This document shows, piece after piece, positions 1,406-59,567 of a stretch of DNA of 64,000 nt (positions are counted from its first letter, which is position 1; each line of letters starts with the position of its first letter). The DNA is from a virus (taxonomy: Duplodnaviria > Caudoviricetes). A program made the translations under genes and the position numbers. The notes below the pieces were generated by a model, which did no database searches, was not told where the DNA came from, and saw only the letters and a list, made by a program, of their open reading frames with translations. Where the stretch lies: IMG/VR virus record IMGVR_UViG_3300014203_000001, positions 160,001 to 224,000 of that record, one strand, 5' to 3'.

Positions 1406-1445
1406 TTATATATTATATAGATGAGTACAAATATATGATACTCGT
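1406..1445 (+). promoter_or_regulatory. Early promoter-like motif plus leader hairpin (copy 1)
   Basis: TTATATATTATA-taga-TGAG followed by GAGTAC..G-A-TACTC stem, then an RBS. Confidence 0.75.
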
Positions 1446-1466
1446 AAAATATAAGGGGGATTTATA

Positions 1467-2078
1467 ATGGGTAATAAAAATAATGAATTGGCAAAGGCAA
1501 TTGAGTTGCTGCACAAAAATGGAAAATTATTCGAGGTTTCAAAAATATGCATTCCTGTAGAATCAGAGGCGAAAGATATACCTTTTACTGTATATTACGA
1601 TTTAGCAGCAGATATTATCGATAGGGGGAGTACCATAATCGATATACCCGCTATTTTAATAGCTGCTGAGGAGTTCAAAAAGAAACAAGTGTATAATGAA
1701 ATGGATATTATTCGATTAGCTAATTCTATAACACAAATACTAGAGGATATATTAACTAAACGCAAAGAATATAAGAAAAGCCTTATATTAATAAATGAAC
1801 TTGCTGAGGCTCTGGCTAAGCTTTCTGATGAAAATAAGATTAGTATTCTTCATAAAAAAGAAGGATATGTTATTTATTATTCGGATGTGGCTAGGGAGAT
1901 AGTAGAAGGGAAAGGGTTAGATATAGATAATATTGCAAGTTATAACGCACAGTTTGATATTATGCCTCCAGAAATTATTTTATTAGAAACAGAGAATTAT
2001 AGTATATCTAAACGCCCTAACAAACCTGTTGACCTTAAAGACGCCATTATAAAGATGCTCTTAAACGAAGCCAAGTAA
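1467..2078 (+). CDS. Hypothetical protein (early cassette)
   Basis: 203 aa ORF with RBS aaggggga; no recognisable motif. Confidence 0.7.
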   Translation: MGNKNNELAKAIELLHKNGKLFEVSKICIPVESEAKDIPFTVYYDLAADIIDRGSTIIDIPAILIAAEEFKKKQVYNEMDIIRLANSITQILEDILTKRKEYKKSLILINELAEALAKLSDENKISILHKKEGYVIYYSDVAREIVEGKGLDIDNIASYNAQFDIMPPEIILLETENYSISKRPNKPVDLKDAIIKMLLNEAK

Positions 2079-2089
2079 ACAATATAATA
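2078..2089 (+). promoter_or_regulatory. Late/non-virion RNAP promoter-like motif AACA-N6-TA
   Basis: AACA-ATATAA-TA upstream of the 842 aa structural gene; matches the AR9 late promoter consensus. Confidence 0.5.
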
Positions 2090-2137
2090 AAGAGTGTAAT
2101 TATCGCACTCTTTATTTTTTATAAAGGGAGTGATTTA

Positions 2138-4666
2138 ATGTCTTATGATTTAGAAAATAAAATAACGATGGATGAGCTAGCTCCGTCATTGCAGAAAAGA
2201 TTAGTTGATCTTAGAACAGATTTATCAAATACTGAATTGGAGCTTGCTACTCATGAAACCAACAATTCGATACACGTTACTCAAGATCTTAAAGATAAGA
2301 TTACTAATAGTTCGACTGAATTAGCTGAGCATGAAGCCAATTCGAGTATTCATGTAGCTCCAACTGATAGGACTAATTGGAATAATAAATTGGACTCTAG
2401 CGCATTAGCTACTACAATAACTACAGTAATGGATTTGAATGATAGGACTAAAGAGAATACAATACGGGATTATATTGATTCTTATGATTTTTTAAACTTT
2501 AATCCTAAAATAGGCTTCTTAGATCAAACTAAAGCCAACCTATCAGCTGCGTTTAATATGTCATATTCGCCAATAAATAACAGACGACCATACCATATCA
2601 TCTCTGATTTTGAGGGTAGGTTAAATCTATATTTCCCTGCATCCAATGATCCATCCACCCCTACAAAACTATATAAAGCATATAGGATGAGTGATAGTGG
2701 AGCATGGGTATTTGAAAACGATCCAATTAAACCTCCATATTTTGGAACTAACGATTATGCAATTGATGTTAGAGCTGCTGGGTATAATTATATAATTATA
2801 CAAGCAAACGTGGGCGGTGCTAATGTATATCATTTAATATTACATAACGGTACAGGCAATGTCTCTAAATGGACCACATATAGAAATATAACATCATTGG
2901 TTAATAGTGTTAATATTGATAATTTAATATATTTTTCAGAATATGATACATTAGCTGCGGTATATTGGGATTCGTCTAAAATATTATGGTTAGCTGTATA
3001 TAATGCTACTACGTTTAGCTTAATAAAAAAAGTGCAATTGTTTAGTAAAGCTAACATAATATATTCTAGTTGGTGGGTTGATCATCCGTTAGATTTAGTC
3101 GTTTGTTCATACACTTATGTAAATACTAAATCACAACTAATAATTGAAACTGGTTGTTGGTGGAATGTTGCTCTTAATTCTGATGGTTTGCATCGAGCTA
3201 CCCCATCAATATTAGCTCATATATTTAATATCCCACCAATATTTTTTAAAGATGGTAGTGGAACCATTTCCAGCGCAATAGATTTGAATACTGAGTATAA
3301 GTTTGATGGTAGTGGTGATGGTATTGTACAATACCATCATAGGTTTTCAGCTTTAACATATGATTATTATGATGATTGTATATATGTAGGATGGAGATTT
3401 ATAGATGATGTATCGAACTGTTTTGGTCGAATAGATGTCAAGACAGCGCCTATGAGTAAATTATATATCCTTCCAACCCAACAGATATTAAACCCTCCAG
3501 ATACTTGCCCATGGGCTAAAGTACAAAGAGAGCCATTTTTAATGGGTAATAATTGGTATTTCAGATGTTTCTCAAATAAATATGGAGAACAAGTATGTCA
3601 TGTAAATTATAAAAAGAATGGTACTAGTAATAAACTAGAAGTTATCGGTGGGTTATGGTCTATATATGATAATACATTAGACAAATATGCTATAGACTGT
3701 GTGCGATATAGCGACTCTAATGTAAAATGGAACTATATTAATACTGGAGATAATACAATCACTGAAGTAAACTTTTCTGGTAAAGATATAAGTTTATCTA
3801 ATACTCCAATATTAACAATTCCATCTTTACCGTCTGGTATACAGAATATCAGATGCTGGTACAATCCTATAAATAATAAAATATATGCAATGGTTATAGA
3901 TATAACATCTACAGATGCAACTAAACAGGGTTTAGCATATATTCTAGAATACGATTGCGCAACTGGAGTGTATAAAAGTCATAAAAATGTTTCTGTTGGA
4001 TGGATGGAATTTTTTAATAATTCGATTGGACAATTAAAAACATATGCACAAATGGGCATATATTCTAATATATTTATAAATTCAGATGAGTCTATGTATT
4101 TTTATATATACTACTCAGGTACAGTATCTAATGGTAAAAGACTTGTTAAATTATCTCCTCAACCTGATGGGACCTTATTATTTACAGACTTTTCTATAAA
4201 TATTACATTGCTATATTCTCAATCTTATATTGGATATGATTCTAACTTTGGTGTATTTACTACGAATAAGTTCAATTTATGGACAACCTCTGCTATTTCT
4301 TGCACTCGCGATTATGTAAATGGAGGGGCGGATAAATCTATAGACACCACTTTTAATGGTAATGGGTATTTATTTTATTTTGGATTGAATGGTTCTACTG
4401 GATTGGTAGCATACTTACAGGATACTCCGATATTCTTAGGCGGTTATTATTCTACCATTCCGTCACAGGAGATATATCTAAATCCAAATAGTGATAATTA
4501 TATTTATTTCAGTAGAGACAAATCTGATAGAACTAAAGTAAATATAAATAATTTTCCAAAACTAATGGGAGATCCGACTTCAATTCAATTTAGTAGAGTA
4601 TTGGCTGGTAAGATAACTACAGACGCTGCCAATCCGACTTCGCAAACATTATACAATATAGGATAA
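2138..4666 (+). CDS. Tail fibre / receptor-binding-like virion protein
   Basis: Duplicated N-terminal EL(A)xHExNxSIHV fibre-type His motif, followed by a beta-rich aromatic body; 842 aa. Confidence 0.6.
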   Translation: MSYDLENKITMDELAPSLQKRLVDLRTDLSNTELELATHETNNSIHVTQDLKDKITNSSTELAEHEANSSIHVAPTDRTNWNNKLDSSALATTITTVMDLNDRTKENTIRDYIDSYDFLNFNPKIGFLDQTKANLSAAFNMSYSPINNRRPYHIISDFEGRLNLYFPASNDPSTPTKLYKAYRMSDSGAWVFENDPIKPPYFGTNDYAIDVRAAGYNYIIIQANVGGANVYHLILHNGTGNVSKWTTYRNITSLVNSVNIDNLIYFSEYDTLAAVYWDSSKILWLAVYNATTFSLIKKVQLFSKANIIYSSWWVDHPLDLVVCSYTYVNTKSQLIIETGCWWNVALNSDGLHRATPSILAHIFNIPPIFFKDGSGTISSAIDLNTEYKFDGSGDGIVQYHHRFSALTYDYYDDCIYVGWRFIDDVSNCFGRIDVKTAPMSKLYILPTQQILNPPDTCPWAKVQREPFLMGNNWYFRCFSNKYGEQVCHVNYKKNGTSNKLEVIGGLWSIYDNTLDKYAIDCVRYSDSNVKWNYINTGDNTITEVNFSGKDISLSNTPILTIPSLPSGIQNIRCWYNPINNKIYAMVIDITSTDATKQGLAYILEYDCATGVYKSHKNVSVGWMEFFNNSIGQLKTYAQMGIYSNIFINSDESMYFYIYYSGTVSNGKRLVKLSPQPDGTLLFTDFSINITLLYSQSYIGYDSNFGVFTTNKFNLWTTSAISCTRDYVNGGADKSIDTTFNGNGYLFYFGLNGSTGLVAYLQDTPIFLGGYYSTIPSQEIYLNPNSDNYIYFSRDKSDRTKVNINNFPKLMGDPTSIQFSRVLAGKITTDAANPTSQTLYNIG

Positions 4667-4670
4667 AATA

Positions 4671-4703
4671 TATACCCCTATACTAAATTAGTATAGGGGT
4701 ATA
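4671..4703 (+). terminator. Intrinsic terminator-like hairpin
   Basis: tatacccctatactaa-a-ttagtataggggtata inverted repeat after the stop codon. Confidence 0.6.
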
Positions 4704-4779
4704 TAATATTGATTTTTATATCAATATATACAATCTTATAAGATAGAGGAGGGCGGAATGAAATATTAAAATAGTACGA

Positions 4780-4799
4780 TTATATATTATATACATGAG
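4780..4799 (+). promoter_or_regulatory. Early promoter-like motif (copy 2)
   Basis: TTATATATTATA-taca-TGAG. Confidence 0.75.
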
Positions 4800-4825
4800 C
4801 AATATTAAAAGGAGATGTATATAAT

Positions 4826-5323
4826 ATGGAAAAGATAAGTATTCCAAACTTAGAGCCTGATGTGATAGACGCTATATTCAATTGTTTATATAAAACTAGC
4901 ACTAAAGAAACACCAGCTCTATTATTTGGTACTCCAGAGAGTAGAGAAAGAAGATCAGCATTCTTATTAGCACATGGAACGCCAGAAGGTAATATTATAA
5001 TTAACGGAGTAGAAAGAAACACTAAAGATACTCTAGAAGAGTTAATCTCTTCTGGATTGTTAGATGCTACATATTTTACTAAAGTATATACTATTAGCTG
5101 TCATGGAGGAGAACAACTATACGCTACTAATAACGGAGTCAGTATAGAAAGTATACACAATTCTTCAGATCAGATTGATATTATGATAGATGTAAATAAT
5201 AATATCTTAAATATCTGCATTGGTATGCCTAAGTGGGAAAGACTAGTTAGAAATGTATGGGGAACTATTATATTCCCAGTATTAAACTGGATTAATAATA
5301 AAAATAAGAAAGGGATAGGATAA
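4826..5323 (+). CDS. Putative minimal clan-CD (caspase-fold) cysteine peptidase
   Basis: Hydrophobic strand plus HG (FLLAHG) and hydrophobic strand plus SC (VYTISCH). Confidence 0.4.
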   Translation: MEKISIPNLEPDVIDAIFNCLYKTSTKETPALLFGTPESRERRSAFLLAHGTPEGNIIINGVERNTKDTLEELISSGLLDATYFTKVYTISCHGGEQLYATNNGVSIESIHNSSDQIDIMIDVNNNILNICIGMPKWERLVRNVWGTIIFPVLNWINNKNKKGIG

Positions 5324-5655
5324 TGGTTAAGATATGGACAGCTAGAGTAGATTATAAAGGAGAAGACAGATTAGATATAACTATTAAGAAAGATATAAAT
5401 CCAGCATTTACTCCTACATGGAAGATGGTATCTGGTCATAAGAATAAGATAATATCATGGGAAGAATATACTAGATTATATCTAGAAAAGATGAGAGTAT
5501 CTTATATGCATAATAGAGTAGAATGGAATAAGATACTTAATATGGAAGAAGTAACATTCGTTTGTTTTTGTAAGGCTAAGCAATGTCATAGATATTTATT
5601 AGCAGATTTGTTTGTAAATCTAGGAGCAACTTATATGGGAGAAAGGAAGGTATAA
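5323..5655 (+). CDS. DUF488-like protein
   Basis: FTPTWKMV..ISWEEYTRLY..VTFVCFC....CHRYLLA pattern. Confidence 0.6.
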   Translation: MVKIWTARVDYKGEDRLDITIKKDINPAFTPTWKMVSGHKNKIISWEEYTRLYLEKMRVSYMHNRVEWNKILNMEEVTFVCFCKAKQCHRYLLADLFVNLGATYMGERKV

Positions 5656-5656
5656 A

Positions 5657-5833
5657 ATGAAATTAGTAGTACACTGGGTAGGAGATAATGTTGTTGAGGA
5701 ATTTGACCAGCTGGTGAGTATAAACGTTGTTTATAATACATGTTTACATGCAAAGTTCAAATGCGACCCGAAGGATATGATAATACCATTATATAACATT
5801 AAATATTATTACATTGAAAAGGATGATGAATAA
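5657..5833 (+). CDS. Small hypothetical protein (58 aa, not in ORF track)
   Basis: RBS ggaagg, ATG at 5657, and its TAA overlaps the next ATG (TAATG). Confidence 0.6.
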   Translation: MKLVVHWVGDNVVEEFDQLVSINVVYNTCLHAKFKCDPKDMIIPLYNIKYYYIEKDDE

Positions 5834-6257
5834 TGGATAACAAGATCGCAGGATTTATAGGGTATTATCGTTTTCTAAGTAATTTCTACTCAGCTAGAGT
5901 AGAAGTAGATGGATTTGTATTCTTAAATAATGAAGCAGCTTTCCAAAGCTATAAATGTAAATGGTCAAACGCGCACAATTCTTCTGTAGTTTAAATCCAT
6001 CTGAAGCTAAGAGAGCTGGTAGAAGAGCTATATTAAGAAAAGATTGGGAAGAGATAAAAGAAGATGTTATGTATAAAGTAGTTCTTGCTAAGTTTGTGCA
6101 GAACGAAGAATTAAAGTACAAATTACTAGATACAGGATCTGCCGAATTAATAGAAGAGAATAATTGGGGGGATAGAATATGGGGTACTGTAAATGGTAAA
6201 GGAAGAAATTTATTAGGTAAGATTTTAATGAGAGTTAGAGAAGAATTAAAAGAGTAG
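5833..6257 (+). pseudogene. NADAR/YbiA family protein with a frameshift
   Basis: The 5833 frame gives YRFLSNFY..EAAFQ; the frame listed as 5961 gives SEAKRAGR..DWEE..AKFVQN..LLDTG..WGDRIWG..GRNLLGKILMRVREEL. The shift is near 5950-5961. Confidence 0.8.
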
Positions 6258-6262
6258 ATATA

Positions 6263-6296
6263 AGGGTATGCAATTTGCATACCCTATTTATTTTTT
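6263..6296. terminator. Bidirectional terminator between convergent operons
   Basis: agggtatgc-aattt-gcataccct followed by a T-rich tail. Confidence 0.7.
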
Positions 6297-6510
6297 ATAA
6301 TCCACAACAATATAATTGGCATATATTAATATTGGCATTTATAATAGGCTGAGGATTTGTATCCCATGTATCTTCTGTTGTGTTCCATGCTACTATTTTA
6401 GTTTCATTGTCTAAAGTATTTGGGTAAACTGCAGATTCGGTAATATTAGTAGCAAAATCAAATACGTCTGGAAGTGTTTGCCATCTTACTATTCTAGTTT
6501 CATCATTCAT
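6295..6510 (-). CDS. Small tail-cluster protein
   Basis: RBS gaggtg; the C-terminal CQLxxxGL is shared with 7592..8035. Confidence 0.6.
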   Translation of the reverse strand: MNDETRIVRWQTLPDVFDFATNITESAVYPNTLDNETKIVAWNTTEDTWDTNPQPIINANINICQLYCCGL

Positions 6511-6522
6511 ATTATATCACCT

Positions 6523-7569: not shown

Positions 7570-7591
7570 TTTAAATACACATCCTTATTTT

Positions 7592-8035: not shown

Positions 8036-8056
8036 ACATTAACCTCCTTTTATAAA

Positions 8057-8089: not shown

Positions 8090-8096
8090 CATTATT

Positions 8097-16906: not shown

Positions 16907-16926
16907 TTATATATTATATATGTGAA
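16907..16926 (+). promoter_or_regulatory. Early promoter-like motif (copy 3)
   Basis: TTATATATTATA-tatg-TGAA. Confidence 0.7.
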
Positions 16927-16949
16927 TATAATATAGGAGGTTTAGTAAA

Positions 16950-17834: not shown

Positions 17835-17880
17835 TTATATATTATAGTTATGAACCAGTATACAATTTGTATACTGGTTA
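17835..17880 (+). promoter_or_regulatory. Early promoter-like motif (copy 4) plus perfect hairpin
   Basis: TTATATATTATA-gtta-TGAA followed by aaccagtatac-aattt-gtatactggtt. Confidence 0.65.
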
Positions 17881-17901
17881 CTTTATTTTTGGGAGGAATA
17901 T

Positions 17902-19218: not shown

Positions 19219-19238
19219 TTATATATTATATAACTGAG
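19219..19238 (+). promoter_or_regulatory. Early promoter-like motif (copy 5)
   Basis: TTATATATTATA-taac-TGAG. Confidence 0.75.
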
Positions 19239-19260
19239 TAAAAATATTAGGAGGATTACA

Positions 19261-30271: not shown

Positions 30272-30323
30272 TTATATATTATATAAGTGACAAGGAATTA
30301 ATCGTTAGATTAATTTACTGTTA
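30272..30323 (+). promoter_or_regulatory. Early promoter-like motif (copy 6) plus long leader hairpin
   Basis: TTATATATTATA-taag-TGAC; gtgaca..gaattaatc-gtta-gattaattt..tgttat. Confidence 0.7.
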
Positions 30324-32063: not shown

Positions 32064-32101
32064 TTATATATTATATAGATGAGTACAAATACTTAAGACT
32101 C
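32064..32101 (+). promoter_or_regulatory. Early promoter-like motif (copy 7) plus leader hairpin
   Basis: TTATATATTATA-taga-TGAG; gagt..actc. Confidence 0.75.
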
Positions 32102-33902: not shown

Positions 33903-33956
33903 AAACATTAAGATAATTATATATTATAATGGTGAGACTCAATAGTTTGAAGTCAT
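33903..33956 (+). promoter_or_regulatory. Stacked AACA-N6-TA and early motif (copy 8) with bulged-A leader hairpin
   Basis: AACA-TTAAGA-TA at 33903; TTATATATTATA-atgg-TGAG at 33917; GACT-CAA..TTG-A-AGTC. Confidence 0.7.
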
Positions 33957-39491: not shown

Positions 39492-40811
39492 TAACGTTGA
39501 GCGTGGGCACCTTATACGGCGACGTATATGTAAAAACTCGTGAACGTAGAAATCTACGGTGTGTTATCGAATATTTCATTTGTATTAACTGCAGGAAATG
39601 GCAGCTAACGATAATGCTAACTGGGAACGTTTAAGTTTTTATATGGTATTATACATCATATAAAAATAAAATAATCCAGTGCTAAGCTGTATTGTAGTGA
39701 GAGGTGTAGTAAAAATGGCATCGATACCATTAAAAGAATCAGACTATGTAGGAAAGATTTATGGGAATCTTACAGTATTAAAATTCGATGGATACCGAGG
39801 AAACTCAACTAGTTTATGCGTATCAGTAGAATGTAAATGTGGAAATACCAAGTCTGTCCAACTTGGTAGTTTAAAACGCGGAACAACTAGAAGCTGTGGC
39901 TGTTTGAACAGAGTTAAAGTGGATGATTATATAGGAAAAACATATAATCGACTAACTGTTTTTGGGCATCATAGAAACGAGACGGGAGACTTATTCCTAG
40001 ATTGTGATTGTAAGTGTGGGAATACAGCATCTATCCGATTTTATGATGTACTCAGATCAGCGACTAAAAGCTGTGGGTGTTTAATTGCGGAAACGAATTC
40101 TATAAATAACAAAGCTAGAAAACAATATAATGAATTCGAATATATAGATGAAGATACTGTTAAAGTATGGCTATCTAACTGCAATGAATTTATGATCTGC
40201 GACTCTTCAACTTGGGATGTATTACGATATTATCTGTGGAGAAAACATCACGAAGGATATGCCACTGCCGATTTAGATGACGGTAGGATAGTTGCGTATC
40301 ATGTTGTAATATTAGAATGCCCAACTGGATATGTAAGAGATCATATAAATCGAAATAGATTAGATAATAGATATTCTAATTTAAGAGTTGTAACACCTAC
40401 AGCCAATGCTATAAATAGAACGCTTCTAGATAAAAACAAATCTGGACATCCTGGGGTCTATTTCGATAAATCTCGTAATAGATGGAGAAGTTTTTACGCA
40501 GATCCCATAACTAAACAAACAAAATTTTCTGATTTTACTACATATGAAGATGCTCTAAAAGATAGAATAGAAAAAGAGCAAACTTACTATAAGATAGAAA
40601 GTCTAACGACTAACAAAATTATTAATATCCCCATAGTTAGTAGAATAATAGCAGAACGGGTTAATATTAATAAGAGTAGATAGCTTAAGGGTGAAATTCC
40701 CTTAGGTGAAGCGCGAGACTCTCATGGTAGTCATTTGTATCATGAGATGATGATATAGTCTATTCCCCTAATAAATATCGGGAAACCGAGGGTACAACGA
40801 GAAGGAATAAG
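39492..40811 (+). mobile_element. Group I self-splicing intron in nrdD (1320 nt)
   Basis: 5' splice site GCU|UAA; IGS GGCAC (39506-39510) pairs exon GUGCU with a U.G pair; GUUGAGCGU pairs the 3' exon GCGCUCAAC (P10); P7 strands AACGACUA / GAUAUAGUC; omega-G at 40811. Splicing restores ESRA-GAQLPFSSI in frame. Confidence 0.95.
39715..40683 (+). CDS. Intron-encoded HNH homing endonuclease (Zn repeats + HNH + AP2-like)
   Basis: Two CKCG..SCGC repeats, DHINRNRLDNRYSNLR, SGHPGVYFDKSRNRW; RBS gaggtg. Confidence 0.9.
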   Translation: MASIPLKESDYVGKIYGNLTVLKFDGYRGNSTSLCVSVECKCGNTKSVQLGSLKRGTTRSCGCLNRVKVDDYIGKTYNRLTVFGHHRNETGDLFLDCDCKCGNTASIRFYDVLRSATKSCGCLIAETNSINNKARKQYNEFEYIDEDTVKVWLSNCNEFMICDSSTWDVLRYYLWRKHHEGYATADLDDGRIVAYHVVILECPTGYVRDHINRNRLDNRYSNLRVVTPTANAINRTLLDKNKSGHPGVYFDKSRNRWRSFYADPITKQTKFSDFTTYEDALKDRIEKEQTYYKIESLTTNKIINIPIVSRIIAERVNINKSR

Positions 40812-42476
40812 GGCGCTCAACTCCCCTTCTCATCAATTGATTTCGGAGATGATACTTCATTCGAAGGTAGAAAAATTACAGAGTGGTGTTTACGCGCTTC
40901 TATTGAAGGAATAGGAGAATTTCACCAAACTCCGATTTTTCCAATCTCAGTTTTTAAGCATAAGAAGGATATTAATGACAGACCAGGAACACCTAATTAT
41001 GATCTAAAACAGTTAGCAATAAAATCTTTATGTAAATCTATATATCCTAATATGGTAAATAGTGATTGGTCTATGAACTGTGCAGATAAATTACTTACTC
41101 AATATATTATTTCAGATGATAACATTCCAAAGGATGCCCTACTTAATATTAGAATCGGAAATAAATTTCATAAAAGAATAAAAGCTAACGAGTTATGGGA
41201 TAAAATTGTAGAATTAGATGATGCTAAGATTAGCCATACTTATCATATAAATGGCACTATATCTATAGATTTGAGATTTACTGATACTATTGTTTGCATC
41301 GATGATAAAAATAGTCAATATAAAGATTATTCATTATCTGTAGATGAATGTATGGCTAAGATAAACTATATTTCAATGGATAAATTTTCTTATAGTATAA
41401 CTACTGATAGTTTTGGATTTGATTATAATGAAAACGAACACTATCAACATCCAATTCCCGATTATGATTATGATACAGAAATGGCAACTATGGGATGCAG
41501 AACTTTAATAGGATATGATGTTAATGGCATGGGATATAAAAAAACAGGTAGAGGAAATGTAACTCCTGTTACTATTAACTTAGCTAAGATCGGTCTGGAC
41601 TATGGTATTGCACTAGGTAAAAGAGCAGAAGCGGATATCGATGGGTTTGCGACCAAACTAAACTGTATGTTAGAACTAGCAGAAAAGGCTTTATTAAATA
41701 GATTTAATTATATATGCTCTCAGAATTATAAATCTGGTAGGTTTATGTATGTAAATGGCGTAATAGCCGATTCTAAAGCTAGTATAGAAAAAGGTATATT
41801 TGAATCTATGAAACATGGAACTAATGCCATTGGTTATATTGGTGTTGGCGAAGCGATGTACGCACTTTTTGGTAAATATCATAACCAAGACAAGATAGTA
41901 TTAGAATTTGCAATTAAAGTTGTAGAAACTATACATAATTATGCTAAAGATGCTACTGCTCGTAATCACCTTAATTTCAGTGCATATGCGACTCCCGCCG
42001 AGGGCGCAAGTCATACTATATGTAAAAACTTACAAAAAGAATATGGTAAAATCTCTGGTGTTTGTGATAGAGAATATATCACAAATTCACATCACGTGCC
42101 AGTATTTGAACACGTATCAATATACGATAAAATTGATATTGAAAGCAAGTTTACTAAATACCCAGGCGGCGGGTGTATTACATATATTGAGATGGAATCT
42201 AATGTAATGAATAACCCATCTGCGGTGGAGAAAGTAATAAACTTTGCTATGAGTAAAGATATACCATACTTCGCAATTAATTTTCCAATAGATAATTGTA
42301 CTGAATGTGGATTCTCTTCAGAGATAGAAAATACTTGCCCTAAATGTGGCGCATCTTCTATATCTCGTCTACGCAGAGTTTCGGGCTACCTATCGACTTC
42401 CGTAGACAAGTTCAATAAAGGAAAACAAGCTGAGTGTAAGGATAGGTATAAACACTCTAAGAAAACAAAATTATAA
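40812..42476 (+). CDS. nrdD: Anaerobic ribonucleoside-triphosphate reductase, exon 2
   Basis: GAQLPFSSI, TPIFPI, MGCRT, GRGNV, YITNSHH, CTECG..CPKCG, glycyl-radical RVSGYL. Confidence 0.95.
   Translation, partial: GAQLPFSSIDFGDDTSFEGRKITEWCLRASIEGIGEFHQTPIFPISVFKHKKDINDRPGTPNYDLKQLAIKSLCKSIYPNMVNSDWSMNCADKLLTQYIISDDNIPKDALLNIRIGNKFHKRIKANELWDKIVELDDAKISHTYHINGTISIDLRFTDTIVCIDDKNSQYKDYSLSVDECMAKINYISMDKFSYSITTDSFGFDYNENEHYQHPIPDYDYDTEMATMGCRTLIGYDVNGMGYKKTGRGNVTPVTINLAKIGLDYGIALGKRAEADIDGFATKLNCMLELAEKALLNRFNYICSQNYKSGRFMYVNGVIADSKASIEKGIFESMKHGTNAIGYIGVGEAMYALFGKYHNQDKIVLEFAIKVVETIHNYAKDATARNHLNFSAYATPAEGASHTICKNLQKEYGKISGVCDREYITNSHHVPVFEHVSIYDKIDIESKFTKYPGGGCITYIEMESNVMNNPSAVEKVINFAMSKDIPYFAINFPIDNCTECGFSSEIENTCPKCGASSISRLRRVSGYLSTSVDKFNKGKQAECKDRYKHSKKTKL
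41079..41450 (+). other. In-frame 124 aa intein-like (probably degenerate) insert in NrdD
   Basis: Starts with Cys; ends SYSITTDSFGFDYN..HYQH, resembling intein blocks F/G but lacking the terminal Asn and a +1 nucleophile. Confidence 0.5.
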
Positions 42477-42520: not shown

Positions 42521-42562
42521 TTATATATTATATAGATGAGCAATATTAAATTGCATCAAACT
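42521..42562 (+). promoter_or_regulatory. Early promoter-like motif (copy 9) plus bulged-A hairpin
   Basis: TTATATATTATA-taga-TGA; TGA-GCAAT..ATTGC-A-TCA. Confidence 0.75.
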
Positions 42563-44531: not shown

Positions 44532-44571
44532 TTATATATTATATAGGTGAGTACAAATATATGATACTCAT
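44532..44571 (+). promoter_or_regulatory. Early promoter-like motif (copy 10) plus leader hairpin nearly identical to copy 1
   Basis: tgagtacaaatatatgatactc is shared with 1422..1443. Confidence 0.8.
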
Positions 44572-48653: not shown

Positions 48654-48710
48654 TCATATATTATATAAGTGAGCAATAATAAAATATTGTATCTTATATT
48701 GAGGTGATAT
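48654..48710 (+). promoter_or_regulatory. Early promoter/leader cassette (copy 11)
   Basis: About 55 bp, near-identical to 57956.. and 59511.. Confidence 0.8.
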
Positions 48711-51073: not shown

Positions 51074-51112
51074 TTATATATTATATAGGTGAGAACAATT
51101 AAGCTATTCTCG
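51074..51112 (+). promoter_or_regulatory. Early promoter-like motif (copy 12) plus leader hairpin
   Basis: TTATATATTATA-tagg-TGAG; GAGAA..TTCTC. Confidence 0.75.
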
Positions 51113-53482: not shown

Positions 53483-53515
53483 TACTAGTCTACTATTAAA
53501 AGGAGGAATAAATTT

Positions 53516-53908: not shown

Positions 53909-53914
53909 AATTAT

Positions 53915-53950
53915 TATAAGAGGATAGCATTGCTATCCTCTTATATTTTT
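53915..53950 (+). terminator. GGATAGC-family hairpin
   Basis: tataagaggatagc-att-gctatcctcttata plus T tail. Confidence 0.65.
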
Positions 53951-53961
53951 AGGAGGGTAAG

Positions 53962-54471
53962 ATGAGACTGGGATATATTAAACCGAAAAGAACGCCATTA
54001 AATTTTAGGCTATTCAATTCCACTAAAAGCGATTTCAATTTAACTCTAAACGATAATATTATAATTTCTATAGATGCGAGCAAAGATTCTCTTCCTTTAT
54101 TATCAAAAAATATAGTAGGATTTGGTATAAAAGATTACGAATATTCAGAGAATCGTTCCACCCATTCTATATCAAAGTATACAAAGAGTACGATACAAAA
54201 TAATACAGAAGATAGTTTATTTATAATGATTAACAAATCATATGATGGTTATGGTTCTGACGTAGGTCTCGAAATATTATACAGTAGGATGGCAGATTTT
54301 TATAAAGCATCGGAAATACCAACACCTAGAATTATCGAGATACCTCCTAGCCAATCACGAGAAATAGACCTGTGTGCAACAATACATTCTACACATACAG
54401 ATAATCTTGTGAGTATTTATAGTGGAGGGAAATGGTCTTACCCTGATATATCAGATAGAGAAATATGGTAA
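53962..54471 (+). CDS. Hypothetical protein
   Basis: RBS aggaggg. Confidence 0.65.
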   Translation: MRLGYIKPKRTPLNFRLFNSTKSDFNLTLNDNIIISIDASKDSLPLLSKNIVGFGIKDYEYSENRSTHSISKYTKSTIQNNTEDSLFIMINKSYDGYGSDVGLEILYSRMADFYKASEIPTPRIIEIPPSQSREIDLCATIHSTHTDNLVSIYSGGKWSYPDISDREIW

Positions 54472-54503
54472 GAGAATAGCATTGCTATTCTCTTTTATTT
54501 TTT
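54470..54503. terminator. Bidirectional terminator
   Basis: aagagaatagc-att-gctattctctt plus T tail. Confidence 0.7.
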
Positions 54504-55630
54504 TCTAGTGCTAAGTTTATCTTATCTAAATTATATGTAGTTGATATGTACTTGCTAAATAAATCTCCTTCTTTGATATTGCTAAACATGAAACTAAAGT
54601 ATCCTTTTCTCGCAATATTATATTTAGGAGTTTTATCTATAACAGCATATTGTTTGGCTAGAAGATCTATATCTTTTATTTGTTTCTGTAGATCTTTCTT
54701 AAGTTCTGGAGGTAGAGTTTCATTATTTTTTATCTCATATTCTAATAGATTAACAGAGGTTTTCATTCTAGCCGCTAGCATGGGAGTATTACTAAACATA
54801 ACCTCTAATGAAGTATTGATTAATCCATAACTTAAATCTAATAGTTTAGCTATTTCTCCATTAGGATCTTTCTTCTTATTATATTCTATCTTAGATAATA
54901 CTGATGATAGTTCCACTCCATATCCATACATAGTAGCAAATTGATCTGCGAATTTCTCATCTATATATCTTCTCCTATCAGATGTTCTACCTATATACAT
55001 TATTAGATTCTTTGTGGTAGGAGAATCTGGAAAGAAGTTGTTTATAAAGTTAGGAGTATTAGTAACTATAAATCCGATGGTTTTAACTGTATCTGATATA
55101 ATAGGTAGTTCTTTTGTTTTTTGTGTAGCTACTGCCATGAATGAAGATATATGAGCTTGTAATGATTTTCTAAAAGTTTCGAAACAAACTTCTATAGGAA
55201 CCACTGCTTCAGTAAAGTTATGCCCAATCTCGTGTAATAATACCGCTACTATCTCACCATCTGTAATCTTATCACTAAAGAATAAAGTAGTAGTATATAC
55301 AACAAGAGTAGAATAATCTGTTTCCTTTTTATATCTAACTCCAGTAGAAGTAACCTCATATTTATCTACAAGATCACCATATTGCTTTTGCCTTACAGGA
55401 ACAGTATAGCAGTTATATTGTACTGCTTGATCAAACCCAAAATATACCTTACTAAACCCAAATGTTTTAGCTATCTTATTTTCGACTTCAGTTATAAGAC
55501 TATCATTTATAACTGTTTTGATTGGATCGTTTATATTATATTTCTTTCTTATCTTAGATATAGTCTTCTCTATATCTAATAGCTCGGGTGTTTTCCCAAA
55601 GTATGTTTCGTTAATAGGTTCAAAGAACAT
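54485..55630 (-). CDS. Zinc metalloprotease (gluzincin, M48-like), probable virion protein
   Basis: AVLLHEIGH plus EKFADQFA; preceded by CACA-TTAATA-TA. Confidence 0.7.
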   Translation of the reverse strand: MFFEPINETYFGKTPELLDIEKTISKIRKKYNINDPIKTVINDSLITEVENKIAKTFGFSKVYFGFDQAVQYNCYTVPVRQKQYGDLVDKYEVTSTGVRYKKETDYSTLVVYTTTLFFSDKITDGEIVAVLLHEIGHNFTEAVVPIEVCFETFRKSLQAHISSFMAVATQKTKELPIISDTVKTIGFIVTNTPNFINNFFPDSPTTKNLIMYIGRTSDRRRYIDEKFADQFATMYGYGVELSSVLSKIEYNKKKDPNGEIAKLLDLSYGLINTSLEVMFSNTPMLAARMKTSVNLLEYEIKNNETLPPELKKDLQKQIKDIDLLAKQYAVIDKTPKYNIARKGYFSFMFSNIKEGDLFSKYISTTYNLDKINLALEKNKRE

Positions 55631-55648
55631 TCTATATCACTCCTTCAT

Positions 55649-55681
55649 TATATTAATGTGATTTGTATCAACAACTATGTA
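55649..55681. promoter_or_regulatory. Divergent pair of NACA-N6-TA motifs
   Basis: CACA-TTAATA-TA on minus (55649..55660) and AACA-ACTATG-TA on plus (55670..55681). Confidence 0.55.
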
Positions 55682-55705
55682 AACTATTAAAGGGGGAATT
55701 TTAAT

Positions 55706-56344
55706 ATGTCTGAGCAAATTAATCTATCTGATATGACTAAAGTATCTTTAGCTGATATTAAACAAATGGTATTAGATGCTAAGGATATCCTAGAAGAAAA
55801 CGCTGCAGATCATGGTACTAGTTTAAAAGTTTATTTTCATTGGACGGCTGGGCACTATAGACAAGTGTTTGCAGATTATCATATGTCTATTATTGACGAT
55901 GGTGGCATTTATATACCTAGTGAAGATTTAACTATTACAAGAAATCATACGTATTATAGAAATCATGGCTCTATTGGTATTGGTATCTGCGCATGTGTTG
56001 GAGCTGTTAGTAACGATCTAGGAGAAGAACCACCTACTGATGCTCAAATAGAATCTATCGCTATGATAACGGCTGTTATTTCTGAAGCGTTGGGAACAGA
56101 AGTTACTATAGAGAACTATATGACGCATGGCGAAGCCGCAGATAATTTAGATGGATACGATCCAGGGTATCCAGATCATACTGGATATGAAGGAAATATC
56201 TATGGTCCTGATAGTACATGTGAACGTTGGGATTTAGCTATTCTAAAGAATGGTGATGAGTGGAAGTCTGGTGGGGATATTATCAGGGGTAAAGCTAATT
56301 GGTATTTGCAAGAGTATAAAGATGGGGTAGAAAATCATTTCTAA
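55706..56344 (+). CDS. N-acetylmuramoyl-L-alanine amidase (endolysin, Amidase_2-like)
   Basis: YFHWTAG, DYH, HTYYRN..SIGI, PTDAQIES, THGE. Confidence 0.8.
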   Translation: MSEQINLSDMTKVSLADIKQMVLDAKDILEENAADHGTSLKVYFHWTAGHYRQVFADYHMSIIDDGGIYIPSEDLTITRNHTYYRNHGSIGIGICACVGAVSNDLGEEPPTDAQIESIAMITAVISEALGTEVTIENYMTHGEAADNLDGYDPGYPDHTGYEGNIYGPDSTCERWDLAILKNGDEWKSGGDIIRGKANWYLQEYKDGVENHF

Positions 56345-56401
56345 AATACAAGGGATAGCGATATGCTATCCCTTTATTATAGTTTCTAATTTGCATTTTG
56401 A

Positions 56402-56439
56402 CTATATATTATATAAGTGAGCAATAATGTATTGCATCA
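56402..56439 (+). promoter_or_regulatory. Early promoter-like motif (copy 13) plus bulged-A hairpin
   Basis: TGA-GCAATA-atg-TATTGC-A-TCA. Confidence 0.75.
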
Positions 56440-56454
56440 AAGGAGGGAATTATT

Positions 56455-57201
56455 TTGTATAAAAATCTACCAGAAATGGTTAACTGTAAACTTATTCCTA
56501 GAAATTTTGGGCATATAGGGCATCTACCTGGAAGTAAAATGATCGATGTAACTGATAAGCTATTACATGAGAACGAGATAACTAAATTTACTGTATGTAA
56601 GAGAGATAAAGACGATTTAGTTATTATTACCGAAAAGATTGATGGGATGAACGCTGGAGTTGTTAAGAAGAATGGTATGCTATATCCTATAAATCGAAAA
56701 GGATATGATTCTAGAGAGATGGGAATACATTGTTCAGATTTGCAAGTATTAGGAGATACCTGGGCTGAATGGGTAGATCAATATTACAGCATATATGATG
56801 TTATGCTGAAAGAGGGCGAGAGATTAGTGTTTGAGAATTGTATTATACAGCATACTTTACAATACAAATTCAAGGACGATCCAGTATTTTTACTTGCTAA
56901 ATATAGTGCTGATAATAAAAGACTGGACTATAAAAGCCTTACCAGAATAGCCAAATATTATAAAATACCACAGCCTCCTCTGTTGAATATGGGTGCGGCT
57001 ATTCCGCCTCAAATTATTCTAAACCAATTTCCCAAGGGATGTGTTGGCGTTAGAGGGGAAATAGAAGGGATAGTATATACATACGAGCACAATGGACAAT
57101 TCGAATCTAACGCTAAATTCGTTAGTAATAAACTTATTGGAACAATTCATCCTCAGACTACAAAATTTAATAGATATAAAATATGGCAAGATATAGTATA
57201 A
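56455..57201 (+). CDS. RNA ligase family nucleotidyltransferase
   Basis: Motif I TEKIDG, motif IV EGIV, motif V AKFV. Confidence 0.75.
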   Translation: MYKNLPEMVNCKLIPRNFGHIGHLPGSKMIDVTDKLLHENEITKFTVCKRDKDDLVIITEKIDGMNAGVVKKNGMLYPINRKGYDSREMGIHCSDLQVLGDTWAEWVDQYYSIYDVMLKEGERLVFENCIIQHTLQYKFKDDPVFLLAKYSADNKRLDYKSLTRIAKYYKIPQPPLLNMGAAIPPQIILNQFPKGCVGVRGEIEGIVYTYEHNGQFESNAKFVSNKLIGTIHPQTTKFNRYKIWQDIV

Positions 57202-57219
57202 TAAAAAGGAGAGATTAGT

Positions 57220-57705
57220 ATGAATAAATTTTTTGATTTGTTTGACGATTCAGAGGAGTACCCGTCTAATGAAAGACTATTAAATGGAGTGCCAATGAAC
57301 ATGTTATTTGAGTATGTATCTGATACGTATCTAAACGGCTTTATTAACTACGTTGATATTAAGAAGGTATTATTAATACAAAGATATTGGAGTGAGAAAG
57401 AGTATGGACCATGGGACGAGTTTGTTAAAAAGGCAATAGAGAAAGGAAGCGATTTTCATACAGACTATAGAATTATTGAAGATGATGTGTTATTCTTAGC
57501 AGAAAGTGAATCTTCTTGGTGGTTCTTTTGGAATGATCGCGATTGTTCTGATTGTTTTATCGGACGTATTGATAAGACTAAGATTAGTTATGACGACTTA
57601 GAGAAAGCATTAATTGAGTTTATCGAAGAACACTTAGAAGATCCTAGTGATATTACTGGGGTGTATGCCGAACTACCTTTGCCGAGTGGATGGAAACGAT
57701 TATAA
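57220..57705 (+). CDS. Acidic, Trp-rich hypothetical protein
   Basis: RBS aaggag. Confidence 0.7.
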   Translation: MNKFFDLFDDSEEYPSNERLLNGVPMNMLFEYVSDTYLNGFINYVDIKKVLLIQRYWSEKEYGPWDEFVKKAIEKGSDFHTDYRIIEDDVLFLAESESSWWFFWNDRDCSDCFIGRIDKTKISYDDLEKALIEFIEEHLEDPSDITGVYAELPLPSGWKRL

Positions 57706-57727
57706 ATATAGAAGAGGAGTATTTAAT

Positions 57728-57916
57728 ATGGAAGATAAAGAGCCATCTCAGATGGAAGTAATTATTAAAATTAAAGGATTTATGGTAAAGCAAATATTCT
57801 TAGACAATATTGCAACTAGGGATTTGACCCAAGAAGATATAACAGTGGATAAAATAATTTCCACTGCAAACAAAACCTCTGGGGAGCTAACAATCAAATG
57901 GGATATTAATGAATAA
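57728..57916 (+). CDS. Small hypothetical protein
   Basis: RBS gaggag before ATG 57728. Confidence 0.6.
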   Translation: MEDKEPSQMEVIIKIKGFMVKQIFLDNIATRDLTQEDITVDKIISTANKTSGELTIKWDINE

Positions 57917-57955
57917 ATATAAGGGATAGCAATTTGCTATCCCTTTCTTTTTTGA

Positions 57956-58012
57956 TTATATATTATATAAGTGAGCAATAGTAAAATATTGTATCTTATA
58001 TTGAGGTGATAT
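57956..58012 (+). promoter_or_regulatory. Early promoter/leader cassette (copy 14)
   Basis: Near-identical to copy 11. Confidence 0.8.
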
Positions 58013-58015
58013 ATA

Positions 58016-58414
58016 ATGGATTATTTAATCCTACCAGCTGGATTTGTTAATAGTATATTAGAAAATTCAAAACTGACAATGATGTCTGTAAAAATAGCTA
58101 TCTATCTTGCAGATAAGTTAGGATTTGACGAGTACAAAACAATGCCACGTAGAACTGAAATTGCTAGGTATTTCAAAGTATCAACGACAACTGTAAATGA
58201 TAGCCTGACAGTATTAGACGATACCAAAATACTACTATCAGATCCTACCAACAATGCTCCTCGTAGATTTACTGGAAAATTTGTATTGTCTGGGTTGTAT
58301 ACTGTAGAAGTAGATGATCTAGATGAATACTTATCGACTCATAGTTTTGAAGAGGCTATAAATAATCCTAATATTAGAAGACATGACCTTATGTGCCGTA
58401 TTAATAAGAAATAG
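58016..58414 (+). CDS. Winged-helix HTH protein
   Basis: PRRTEIARYFKVSTTTVNDSLTVL. Confidence 0.7.
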   Translation: MDYLILPAGFVNSILENSKLTMMSVKIAIYLADKLGFDEYKTMPRRTEIARYFKVSTTTVNDSLTVLDDTKILLSDPTNNAPRRFTGKFVLSGLYTVEVDDLDEYLSTHSFEEAINNPNIRRHDLMCRINKK

Positions 58415-58480
58415 ACGCAATATATCCCATATATCGGTCGGCTATATAGGATATACCATTTTGAAAGGAGTTAATTTATA

Positions 58481-58672
58481 ATGGATTATATGATTGAGGA
58501 ACTAAGAGCTGCAATTGCTAATACTGAAGAGAGCAGTAAAAAATTAGCCCATCTTTTACGATATGATGTGATAGATGAAAAAGACAAACTGGCACTTTCT
58601 ACTAGTTTGGAAGTAAATGAAAGAATTATCAAAAATCTTAAACATAAACTTTTCGTGCTTCTTTCACTATAA
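58481..58672 (+). CDS. Small coiled-coil protein
   Basis: RBS aaggag; terminator follows. Confidence 0.6.
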   Translation: MDYMIEELRAAIANTEESSKKLAHLLRYDVIDEKDKLALSTSLEVNERIIKNLKHKLFVLLSL

Positions 58673-58731
58673 CTGGCTTAACGCCAGTTTATTTTTTCTC
58701 TTTTATACATTGATTTAAAGGAGATGATACG

Positions 58732-59457
58732 ATGTTTAAAGCTAGAAAAGAAGTAGAAGAATTAATATATAAAACTCTAGATATCCTAGACCCAACAGAA
58801 CAGAACTCTTCATTCTATAAAGCTAAGTTTGCTAAGATGAATGATGATGCTTTTATGCAATTCTTTAAACAAGACTTTGCTGTTAAGTTTCAAATGAAAC
58901 TATTTGAGATAGAACCTACAATGGGGAAAATTAGTAAAGCCTTAGATGTAATAGGAGTTCCTCTTATGGAGAAACTTAATATGCCATTCTTATATAGAAA
59001 TAAAGATGGCACTCCTGTAAAGACTGAACTTGCTATGGTTATTTATGATCCAATGAAGAAGATGAAGCAATTTATTAGTAAGAAGAACTCTATGTCTACC
59101 AATATATCTAAGAGAGATATGAAAACGGGTTTGCTATTAGATATAGATAAGAATGGTAATACATCTGATAGAGAAATAGAATGTTTAGCTGTTATGGGAT
59201 TGTATGCTACCATAGATGAGCTAGCTACATACAGAGCAGATTCTATGGATGCTAAAGCAGAGTTCTATAATAGCATTAATCTAACAGGTATGGTATCTCA
59301 GAAAGATATTAAAGTATATAAAGATGATTCTCTCTCAAGAAATATGCTAAGCACTTATCTATTAGGAGCATTGCTAAATAGTAATTTAGTTAATGAAGAA
59401 GATTACTTACCAATGACTCTTAAAAATAAAGAAAGAAAAACCCAAAGAGAAGTATAA
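58732..59457 (+). CDS. Split RNA polymerase beta-subunit C-terminal fragment (probably virion RNAP)
   Basis: KKMKQFISKKNSMS..RDMKTG..NGNTSDREIECLAVMG..ELATYRADS parallels the RpoB KLxHxxxxKxxxR..GQRFGEMEVWAL..ExLTxKSD region; TACA-TTGATT-TA at 58706. Confidence 0.65.
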   Translation: MFKARKEVEELIYKTLDILDPTEQNSSFYKAKFAKMNDDAFMQFFKQDFAVKFQMKLFEIEPTMGKISKALDVIGVPLMEKLNMPFLYRNKDGTPVKTELAMVIYDPMKKMKQFISKKNSMSTNISKRDMKTGLLLDIDKNGNTSDREIECLAVMGLYATIDELATYRADSMDAKAEFYNSINLTGMVSQKDIKVYKDDSLSRNMLSTYLLGALLNSNLVNEEDYLPMTLKNKERKTQREV

Positions 59458-59510
59458 GAATATATCCCTATCCATAACGGATAGGGATTTGTAATTTTAG
59501 ATAAACATAA

Positions 59511-59567
59511 TTATATATTATATAAGTGAGCAATATTAAAATATTGTATCTTGTAAAGAGGTGATAT
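59511..59567 (+). promoter_or_regulatory. Early promoter/leader cassette (copy 15)
   Basis: Near-identical to copies 11 and 14. Confidence 0.8.

What the first reader, a model, noticed from the sequence alone, without database searches (positions are those of the whole stretch)
1421..59547. Conserved 5'-leader RNA hairpin with a bulged A, built from different stem sequences, behind early promoters
Seen: a stem starts at or next to the TGA of the promoter motif. Its sequence varies but it keeps pairing and a single unpaired A on the 3' strand: GAGTA-C..G-A-TACTC (1423, 44549), GACT-CAA..TTG-A-AGTC (33936), TGA-GCAAT..ATTGC-A-TCA (42538), TGA-GCAATA..TATTGC-A-TCA (56418), GA-GCAATA..TATTGT-A-TC (48671, 57973, 59528). 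Related stems occur at 32081 (GAGT/ACTC) and 51091 (GAGAA/TTCTC). Known: bulged-A hairpins are classic protein-binding RNA operators (MS2 coat operator), and 5' hairpins hinder 5'-end-dependent decay. Inference: this may be an undescribed phage RNA tag marking early mRNAs for recognition by a phage protein (self/non-self protection during host shut-off, antitermination or translational control), or a structural element read by the virion RNAP.
Basis: partly seen in the sequence, partly recalled or inferred. Interest (0 to 1): 0.78.

Follow-up and report, generated by a model that had tools for sequence, protein, structure and literature searches.

The report
Hairpins starting early phage transcripts
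In this giant AR9-like phage, about half of the early genes are preceded by a promoter whose transcript is predicted to begin with a small hairpin; this is most likely ordinary protection of the mRNA 5' end, not a new recognition tag.

Summary
The stems exist at every listed site. The motif TATATATTAT-N6-G matches the mapped early (virion RNA polymerase) promoter of phage AR9, which puts the start at the G of TGAG, the base of the stem.

In this 245.7-kb phage and a relative about 71% identical in DNA, a 5'-terminal hairpin beats shuffles (p<=0.05) in 30 of 62 long leaders. By my count that is about 12 of 32 independent lineages. AR9 shows no enrichment. Two orthologous leader pairs carry five compensatory double changes. 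Pairing upstream of +1 is no better than chance.

The bulged A is not general. It belongs to one reused cassette (GAGCAAU-loop-AUUGY-A-UC, more than 20 copies before unrelated genes) and a few other stems. About 13 other hairpin lineages lack it. In the GU subfamily the bulge-forming extension is not in the minimum-energy fold.

The hairpin keeps a fixed distance to the transcript start but sits 1-13 nt from the ribosome site. Its loops vary. Long predicted late leaders often start with hairpins too.

Best reading: 5'-end protective stem-loops spread as promoter-leader cassettes (confidence about 0.5). A protein-recognised tag is not excluded for the main cassette (about 0.15). Nothing was tested by experiment, and the tool for finding sequencing runs was closed.

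The parts
1407..1443 (+). Early promoter (TATATATTAT+ATAGAT), inferred start at G1423, 5' hairpin 1423-1443 (GAGUA-C..G-A-UACUC, 3' bulged A after bp 5)
   Evidence: MFE -5.1, z -4.24
44533..44569 (+). Same promoter and same hairpin sequence as at 1423; start at 44549, hairpin 44549-44569
   Evidence: MFE -5.1, z -3.57
33918..33954 (+). Early promoter, start at 33934, hairpin 33936-33954 (GACU-CAA..UUG-A-AGUC), beginning at +3
   Evidence: the ortholog in relative L273 keeps GACU/AGUC but not the inner helix
42522..42557 (+). Early promoter plus main-cassette hairpin (GC subfamily) GAGCAAU-loop-AUUGC-A-UC; start at 42538
   Evidence: MFE -4.7
56403..56438 (+). Early promoter plus main-cassette hairpin (GC subfamily); start at 56419; the ribosome site follows 1 nt after the stem; the downstream gene is RNA-ligase-like
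   Evidence: MFE -5.3
48655..48693 (+). Early promoter plus main-cassette hairpin (GU subfamily) GAGCAAUA..UAUUGU-A-UC; the MFE pairs only 48673-48690
   Evidence: MFE -3.3, GA/UC extension not in the MFE
57957..57995 (+). Early promoter plus main-cassette hairpin (GU subfamily); start at 57973
   Evidence: MFE -4.2
59512..59550 (+). Early promoter plus main-cassette hairpin (GU subfamily); start at 59528
   Evidence: MFE -4.1
32065..32101 (+). Early promoter plus weak 4-bp terminal stem GAGU/ACUC; start at 32081
   Evidence: MFE -2.1, z -1.5
51075..51111 (+). Early promoter plus 5-bp terminal stem GAGAA/UUCUC; start at 51091
   Evidence: MFE -3.0; a relative has GAGAA-CC..GG-A-UUCUU (L274)
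17836..17890 (+). Early promoter, start at 17852, 12-bp perfect hairpin 17853-17879 followed by a U-run (terminator-like leader); no bulge
   Evidence: MFE -15.5, z -5.5; the ortholog in L271 has a different 8-bp stem from +1
30273..30322 (+). Early promoter, start at 30289, 13-bp hairpin from +1 with a 2x2 internal loop; no bulged A
   Evidence: MFE -9.5, z -3.3
4781..4808 (+). Early promoter with the 5' arm only (GAGCAAUA) and a 12-nt leader to the ribosome site; no hairpin
16908..16935 (+). Early promoter with a short unstructured leader (11 nt to the ribosome site)
19220..19249 (+). Early promoter with a short unstructured leader (13 nt to the ribosome site)
60806..60833 (+). Early promoter with a short unstructured leader (11 nt to the ribosome site)

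Best explanation
The motif is the early promoter read by the phage's injected multisubunit RNA polymerase. Transcription is inferred to start at the G of TGAG. In about half of the early units the first 20-35 nt of the mRNA fold into a stem-loop whose first base pair involves nucleotide +1 to +3. The most likely function is protection of the 5' end. A base-paired 5' terminus denies access to 5'-end-dependent decay enzymes (pyrophosphohydrolase RppH, RNase J1 or RNase E type), so early messages outlast host shut-off. The 5' arm is largely fixed by the preferred initial transcribed sequence (G-A-R-N-A-A), and the 3' arm has evolved to pair with it. One version, GAGCAAU-loop-AUUGY-A-UC, has spread together with its promoter as a roughly 70-bp cassette in front of unrelated accessory genes. 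What is shown: the promoter match, the position of the hairpins, the enrichment, the compensatory changes and the cassette reuse. What is inferred: the start site (by analogy with AR9), early timing and the stabilising effect.
For: The promoter matches AR9's mapped early consensus AAATATATATTAT-(6N)-G(+1). The exact 19-mer occurs 19 times in the genome against 0 for the reversed control. The genome has two RNA polymerase beta-like genes; the one tested (807 aa) has AR9/PBS1 as nearest annotated relatives at 34% aa identity. The motif precedes that gene, the homolog of the AR9 non-virion polymerase beta gene. The terminal hairpin beats shuffles in 30 of 62 leaders. The first paired base lies at +1..+3 in 27 of 39 and 14 of 23 leaders against 31% of shuffles. 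Adding promoter DNA upstream of +1 gives no gain beyond chance (1 of 48 at p<=0.05). In orthologous leaders, G000 230839 versus G001 17234 shows 3 double compensatory changes, and 20634(-) versus 54247(-) shows 2. In the cassette family 99.4% of cells pair, against 23-52% when the partner is slid, and the changes seen are G-C to G-U or A-U. Loop length varies and G-U pairs are tolerated, which argues against a DNA operator. Distance to the start is fixed at 0-2 nt, while distance to the ribosome site varies from 1 to 13 nt. Long predicted late leaders also start with hairpins in 9 of 17 cases, so the feature follows 5' ends and not one polymerase. Non-hairpin leaders share the same +1..+6 consensus. 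5'-terminal stem-loops are established stabilisers: ompA, papA and aprE, as listed among the references of PMC3997798.
Against: No start site or half-life has been measured for this uncultured phage. Most of the hairpins are weak (-3 to -5 kcal/mol), and in the GU subfamily G1 and A2 are unpaired in the minimum-energy fold, which is poor protection on its own. About half of the early leaders, and AR9 as a whole, manage without a hairpin. The exact stem sequence and the bulged A of the main cassette are conserved between phages whose genomes are about 71% identical. Simple stability does not require that. The host, and therefore its RNase set, is unknown.
Confidence: 0.5

Rival explanations
1. 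The main cassette hairpin (GAGCAAU-loop-AUUGY-A-UC) is a sequence-specific RNA operator. A phage protein binds it and co-regulates about 20 early accessory genes, through selective stabilisation, translational shut-off or antitermination.
For: Both arms and the bulged A are identical in more than 22 copies across two phages and a sister contig, while loops and flanks diverge. The hairpin is too weak to be a strong barrier by itself. 3' single-A bulges look over-represented compared with terminator hairpins. Some copies end 1-2 nt before the ribosome site.
Against: The loop sequence is not conserved. Spacing to the ribosome site varies from 1 to 13 nt. Conservation of the 5' arm is explained by the initial-transcribed-sequence preference, which copies with only the 5' arm also share, and the 3' arm then follows by pairing. 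Homologous downstream genes carry different hairpins or none. No candidate binding protein was identified.
Confidence: 0.15
2. The hairpin serves the virion polymerase co-transcriptionally. Folding of the nascent 5' end just after promoter escape would help clearance, prevent backtracking or keep the RNA off the template.
For: The helix begins exactly at +1. The +1..+6 sequence is conserved with the promoter. The hairpin would form when the RNA is about 20 nt long.
Against: Half of the promoters with the same core lack it. AR9 promoters of the same type lack it. Predicted late transcripts, made by the other polymerase, also start with hairpins.
Confidence: 0.12
3. The repeats matter as DNA. 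They could be inverted repeats bound by a repressor of early promoters, or simply homology blocks that drive cassette shuffling in the manner of T4-type PeSLs, with the RNA fold incidental.
For: Promoter-leader blocks of about 70 bp recur in front of unrelated genes, usually just after a terminator. PeSL cassettes are known to behave this way.
Against: Spacing between half-sites varies from 3 to 10 nt. G-U pairs (G-T mismatches in DNA) are kept at two positions while A-C pairs are not seen. Many unrelated stems show the same placement at +1, with compensatory changes.
Confidence: 0.08
4. The stems are chance pairings in AT-rich leaders.
For: Individual z-scores are modest (-1.5 to -2.5 for many).
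Against: The group-level enrichment is strong, and AR9 and shuffled controls show none. Orthologs carry compensatory changes.
Confidence: 0.03

Closest known systems
AR9 early (virion RNA polymerase) promoters, AAATATATATTAT-(6N)-G+1 (Lavysh et al. 2017, PMC5312081)
   Same: Same core motif, the same 6-nt spacer to a conserved G, and the same kind of phage (two multisubunit RNA polymerases; the beta subunit tested is 34% identical).
   Different: AR9 leaders are shorter (median 19 nt to the ribosome site against 30). They show no enrichment of 5' hairpins (4 of 16 against 26% in shuffles) and no GAGCAAU cassette. The AR9 paper mentions an unexplained 5'-UTR motif in early transcripts (its Fig. 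S3), which I could not read.
5'-terminal stem-loop mRNA stabilisers (E. coli ompA and papA, B. subtilis aprE leader; T7 phi10 leader from my own knowledge)
   Same: The hairpin sits at the extreme 5' end with 0-2 unpaired nucleotides, upstream of a strong ribosome site, and stem sequence is free to vary.
   Different: Function is untested here. Many of these stems are much weaker. One stem sequence is reused more than 20 times as a cassette.
PeSL (promoter-early stem-loop) cassettes of T4-type phages (PMC2839356, PMC4122927)
   Same: Short conserved promoter-plus-stem-loop modules are repeated in front of variable accessory genes.
   Different: The PeSL stem-loop is a terminator joined to a host-polymerase promoter. 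Here the stem-loop lies inside the transcript at +1, behind a phage-polymerase promoter.
Bulged-A operator hairpins (MS2 coat-protein operator) and lambda boxB
   Same: Small hairpin with one unpaired A, near the start of a phage message.
   Different: From my own knowledge, the MS2 bulge lies on the 5' strand, the loop is sequence-specific, and the site is single-copy and overlaps the start codon. Here the bulge lies on the 3' strand, loops vary, spacing to the ribosome site varies, and there are more than 20 copies.

Membership tests
AR9-type virion-polymerase early promoter | Consensus ATATATTAT, 6-nt spacer, conserved G at +1 | tested here: met
   51 copies with a ribosome site in the genome, 16 of them in the window; -1 is T and +1 is G by selection, and +2 is A in 75 of the 80 promoters of the two genomes, matching
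AR9-type virion-polymerase early promoter | The phage encodes two multisubunit RNA polymerases | tested here: inconclusive
   Two beta-like matches (PF00562), one over the cut-off and homologous to the AR9 non-virion beta subunit. The beta' model PF00623 gave no match, as expected for such diverged subunits
AR9-type virion-polymerase early promoter | Transcripts start at the G and appear early, independent of protein synthesis | not testable with these tools
5'-terminal stabiliser stem-loop | Helix begins within a few nucleotides of the 5' end | tested here: met
   First paired base at +1..+3 in 69% and 61% of long leaders against 31% of shuffles; no real extension upstream of +1; conditional on the inferred start site
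5'-terminal stabiliser stem-loop | Pairing, not sequence, is what is kept | tested here: met
   Five double compensatory changes in two orthologous pairs; more than 15 unrelated stem sequences. Within the main cassette the sequence itself is kept
5'-terminal stabiliser stem-loop | Lengthens mRNA half-life | not testable with these tools
   Needs reporter decay assays
Protein-binding operator hairpin (MS2 or boxB type) | Conserved loop and bulge nucleotides that a protein reads | tested here: not met
   Loops differ in length (3-7 nt or more) and in sequence. The bulged A is kept only inside the cassette family and a few other stems
Protein-binding operator hairpin (MS2 or boxB type) | A cognate binding protein | not testable with these tools
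   No candidate identified
PeSL-type mobile regulatory cassette | Near-identical promoter-plus-stem-loop block in front of non-homologous accessory genes | tested here: met
   No BLASTP hit at E<=1e-5 between any two of the downstream ORFs of the G000 cassette copies; block alignment
PeSL-type mobile regulatory cassette | The stem-loop is the terminator of the preceding unit | tested here: not met
   The hairpin lies downstream of +1; separate terminators sit upstream of most promoters
Any Rfam family | Match at the gathering score | tested here: not met
   0 matches in the whole window

The most novel reading that the evidence does not exclude
The GAGCAAU-loop-AUUGY-A-UC hairpin, with its invariant 3' bulged A two base pairs from the triphosphate end, is a dedicated operator. 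A phage-encoded RNA-binding protein would recognise it and control a post-transcriptional regulon of about 20 accessory genes transcribed by the virion polymerase, in a clade of AR9-like jumbo phages.
Probability: 0.15. Interest if true: 0.7.

Novelty: new member of a known kind. Interest (0 to 1): 0.35.

Why it matters
Regulation after transcription is almost unexplored in jumbo phages that bring their own RNA polymerase. If these hairpins protect early messages, they show one way such a phage could keep its first mRNAs alive while host RNA is lost. They would also provide compact promoter-leader parts for expression systems based on AR9-type polymerases. The practical value today is annotation: the motif plus hairpin marks early transcription units and their likely 5' ends in an uncultured 246-kb phage and its relatives.

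Tried and rejected
1. Broad pattern scans for more relatives failed. Only G001, a sister contig (L242) and two doubtful contigs were useful.
2. The search for related loci with the polymerase beta subunit found nothing.
3. The 64-kb contig that probably completes G001 is not held for the genome search. I reached relatives instead by protein identity.
5. A longer helix reaching into the promoter looked possible but was rejected, because shuffled 3' flanks pair equally well.
6. My first idea that late leaders are unstructured was wrong. They are mostly short, but 9 of 17 long ones also start with a hairpin.
7. Gene duplication does not explain the cassette copies, because their downstream proteins are unrelated.
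8. I did not build a covariance model. The main family shows almost no sequence variation, and the other stems are unrelated in sequence, so a model would only find its own training set. A regex search and pair counts answered the same questions.
9. The first version of the hairpin script forced non-canonical closing pairs. It was corrected.


Full report
WHAT THE WINDOW IS. The window is bases 160001-224000 of a 245,713-bp phage genome with direct terminal repeats and about 31% G+C. The genome has two RNA polymerase beta-like genes. For the one I tested (807 aa), the nearest annotated relatives are Bacillus phages AR9 and PBS1, at 34% amino-acid identity to the AR9 non-virion beta subunit. 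It is therefore a distant member of the AR9 group of jumbo phages, which carry a virion and a non-virion multisubunit polymerase.

THE PROMOTER AND THE START SITE. The repeated motif is TATATATTAT, then six bases (mostly ATARRT), then G. Primer extension and dRNA-seq in AR9 defined early promoters as AAATATATATTAT-(6N)-G, with the G as +1 (PMC5312081). By that rule the transcripts here start at the G of 'TGAG'.
- The exact 19-mer occurs 19 times in the genome against 0 for a reversed control.
- A looser search finds 51 copies followed by a ribosome-binding site, 16 of them in the window.
- One copy precedes the homolog of the AR9 non-virion polymerase beta gene.
- The start site and the early timing are inferences.

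CHECK OF THE OBSERVATION.
- The minimum-energy fold contains the 3' bulged A at 1423, 44549, 33934, 42538 and 56419.
- At 48671, 57973 and 59528 the fold pairs only from G3. The two-base-pair GA/UC extension that would create the bulge is about energetically neutral.
- 32081 and 51091 are weak.
- The T of 'TGA' is -1, so it cannot be part of the RNA helix. In the relative G001 the base opposite it is not complementary.
- A test of whether the leaders pair with the 16 nt of promoter DNA gave no excess over shuffled flanks: 1 of 48 at p<=0.05, with a median gain of -1.85 against -1.65 kcal/mol.
The helix therefore begins at +1.

IS IT MORE THAN CHANCE? I compared this genome (G000) with a relative, G001 (IMG/VR 3300014203_000012). 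G001 is 184 kb, syntenic and about 71% identical in DNA over 124 kb.
- Among 62 early leaders of at least 20 nt, the best hairpin starting at +1..+3 beats 200 shuffles at p<=0.05 in 30 cases and at p<=0.01 in 10 cases.
- When paralogous and orthologous copies are collapsed by hand, about 12 of 32 lineages pass, where 1.6 are expected.
- In unconstrained folds the first paired base is at +1..+3 in 27 of 39 leaders (G000) and 14 of 23 (G001), against 31% of shuffles.
- AR9, folded from its mapped start sites, shows no enrichment: 4 of 16 against 26%.

EVIDENCE THAT THE PAIRING IS SELECTED, AND AT THE RNA LEVEL.
- The orthologous leaders G000 230839 and G001 17234 precede proteins that are 77% identical. 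They have 12-bp and 9-bp stems from +1 that differ by three double compensatory changes and one G-U to G-C change.
- G000 20634(-) and G001 54247(-) precede proteins that are 70% identical. They differ by two double changes.
- Homologous downstream genes can carry quite different hairpins. One example is the leader at window 33934 against a main-cassette leader in G001. Another is the leader at window 17852 against an unrelated 8-bp stem in the syntenic contig L271.
- In the main cassette family 99.4% of alignment cells form standard pairs, against 23-52% when the partner column is slid. The changes seen are G-C to G-U or A-U. The few both-side changes come from two variant rows whose MAFFT register is doubtful.
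- G-U pairs are kept at two positions and A-C pairs are not seen.
- The distance between the two arms varies from 3 to about 10 nt.
The last two points argue against a dimeric DNA operator and for a single-strand fold of the sense strand.

THE MAIN CASSETTE. GAGCAAU(A)-loop-(U)AUUGC-A-UC and its GU variant with UAUUGU occur 15 times in G000, 6 times in G001 and in three sister contigs.
- They always sit at +1 of an early promoter. AR9 has none.
- No two of the downstream ORFs of the G000 copies match each other by BLASTP at E<=1e-5, so the roughly 70-bp promoter-leader block is reused as a module. Other first readers of this scan noted the same thing.
- Five further promoters carry the 5' arm GAGCAA(U/C)A without a 3' arm.
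- Hairpin-less leaders share the same start consensus G-A-R-N-A-A.
The 5' arm is therefore largely a property of the promoter or the initial transcribed sequence, and the 3' arm is constrained by pairing with it. This explains much of the apparent sequence conservation without invoking a reader protein. It does not explain the extra A.

THE BULGED A. A unified list of minimum-energy folds over six sources shows where a single 3' A bulge appears:
- the GC subfamily of the main cassette (after bp 2);
- the variant at G001 5338 (after bp 2);
- the 1423/44549 hairpin (after bp 5);
- 33934 (after bp 4).
By eye it also appears in a related leader of contig L274, GAGAA-CC..GG-A-UUCUU. It is absent from about 13 other hairpin lineages, several of them perfect helices: 17852, 30289, G000 230839 with G001 17234, G001 44757, L271 3552 and 2135, and L275 15007. 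Among 385 terminator-like hairpins of the two genomes, 6.2% have a 3' single-A bulge, and 43% of all single-base bulges are A. Four or five of about 18 lineages is thus a mild excess. I calculate p of about 0.01-0.02, post hoc, with the bulge position left free. The bulge is a trait of some families, not the defining feature of the class.

WHAT THE ELEMENT IS TIED TO. The hairpin has a fixed relation to the transcript start (0-2 nt) and a variable relation to the ribosome site (1-13 nt in the cassette family). The genome also has AR9-like late promoter motifs (AACA-N6-T-A/G). Most predicted late leaders are short (median 15.5 nt to the ribosome site). Of the 17 long ones, 9 also begin with a significant hairpin, and several of those double as the terminator of the upstream gene. 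Hairpins at 5' ends are therefore not peculiar to early transcripts or to the virion polymerase.

MECHANISM. The best fit is the classical 5'-terminal stem-loop that shields an mRNA from 5'-end-dependent decay. This is established for ompA and papA in E. coli and for the aprE leader in B. subtilis (references in PMC3997798), and for the T7 phi10 leader (my own knowledge).
- Weaknesses: most of the stems are only -3 to -5 kcal/mol, half of the early genes and all of AR9 do without one, and the host is unknown. A low-GC Gram-positive anaerobe is my guess, based on the strong AGGAGG ribosome sites and the anaerobic reductase and radical-SAM genes.
- Rivals: a specific protein partner for the main cassette, a co-transcriptional role for the virion polymerase, and DNA-level repeats that drive cassette shuffling as T4-type PeSLs do.
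- The window contains no Rfam family at gathering score.

VERDICT. This is a real and statistically supported feature. It is a modest extension of known biology and not a new kind of RNA tag. The bulged-A idea survives only as a minority hypothesis for one cassette family.

Noticed in passing
window 39679-42476 (core 40653-40802): The anaerobic ribonucleotide reductase (NrdD-like) gene is in two ORFs (39679-40683 and 41052-42476). Between them lie a weak group I intron match (RF00028, 18.2 bits, E 0.036, below gathering) and a 59-nt stretch that is 91-94% identical to segments in many Bacillus, Staphylococcus, Listeria and Enterococcus phages. A relative (L274) has an HNH gene inside its split nrdD. 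This is probably a group I intron.
   Followed up: partly
window 2079-2137, and 8 other places in the genome: AR9-like late promoter motifs (AACA-N6-T-A/G) are placed so that the predicted start abuts a hairpin that looks like the terminator of the upstream gene (here AAAGAGUG..CACUCUUU plus a U-run). 9 of 17 long predicted late leaders start with a significant hairpin.
   Followed up: partly
window 17836-17890; also G000 57922(-) = L263:17879-17922: An early promoter is followed at +2 by a strong hairpin (-15.5 kcal/mol) and a U-run, before the ribosome site. This is a terminator-like structure inside the leader and could be an attenuator or a shared 3'/5' end structure.
   Followed up: no
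L262:5592-5640 and L268:6072-6118 (G000 25592 and 146072): Two early leaders before unrelated genes share a second conserved block, CTGAGCTGGCAG..AACTAGCGAAAGG, that starts about 20 nt after the start site. Its function is unknown.
   Followed up: no
L264:9667-9715 (G000 69667) and G001 103834: Orthologous early leaders keep an internal structure, GCUGGUAAC..GGUAACAGC, that contains a direct GGUAAC repeat and is not at the 5' end.
   Followed up: no
L242, L271 (contigs Ga0172378_10000094 and ERZ27249489:k141_198558): A 64-kb contig from the same metagenome as G001 (184 kb) probably supplies G001's missing quarter (the sum is about 248 kb). An ENA contig that carries an identical 92-aa protein is syntenic with window 1-21000 at about 70% identity.
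   Followed up: partly
window 56455-57201: The gene behind the cassette leader at 56419 is RNA-ligase-like (PF09414, E 3e-9). Most other genes behind hairpin leaders have no Pfam match.
   Followed up: no
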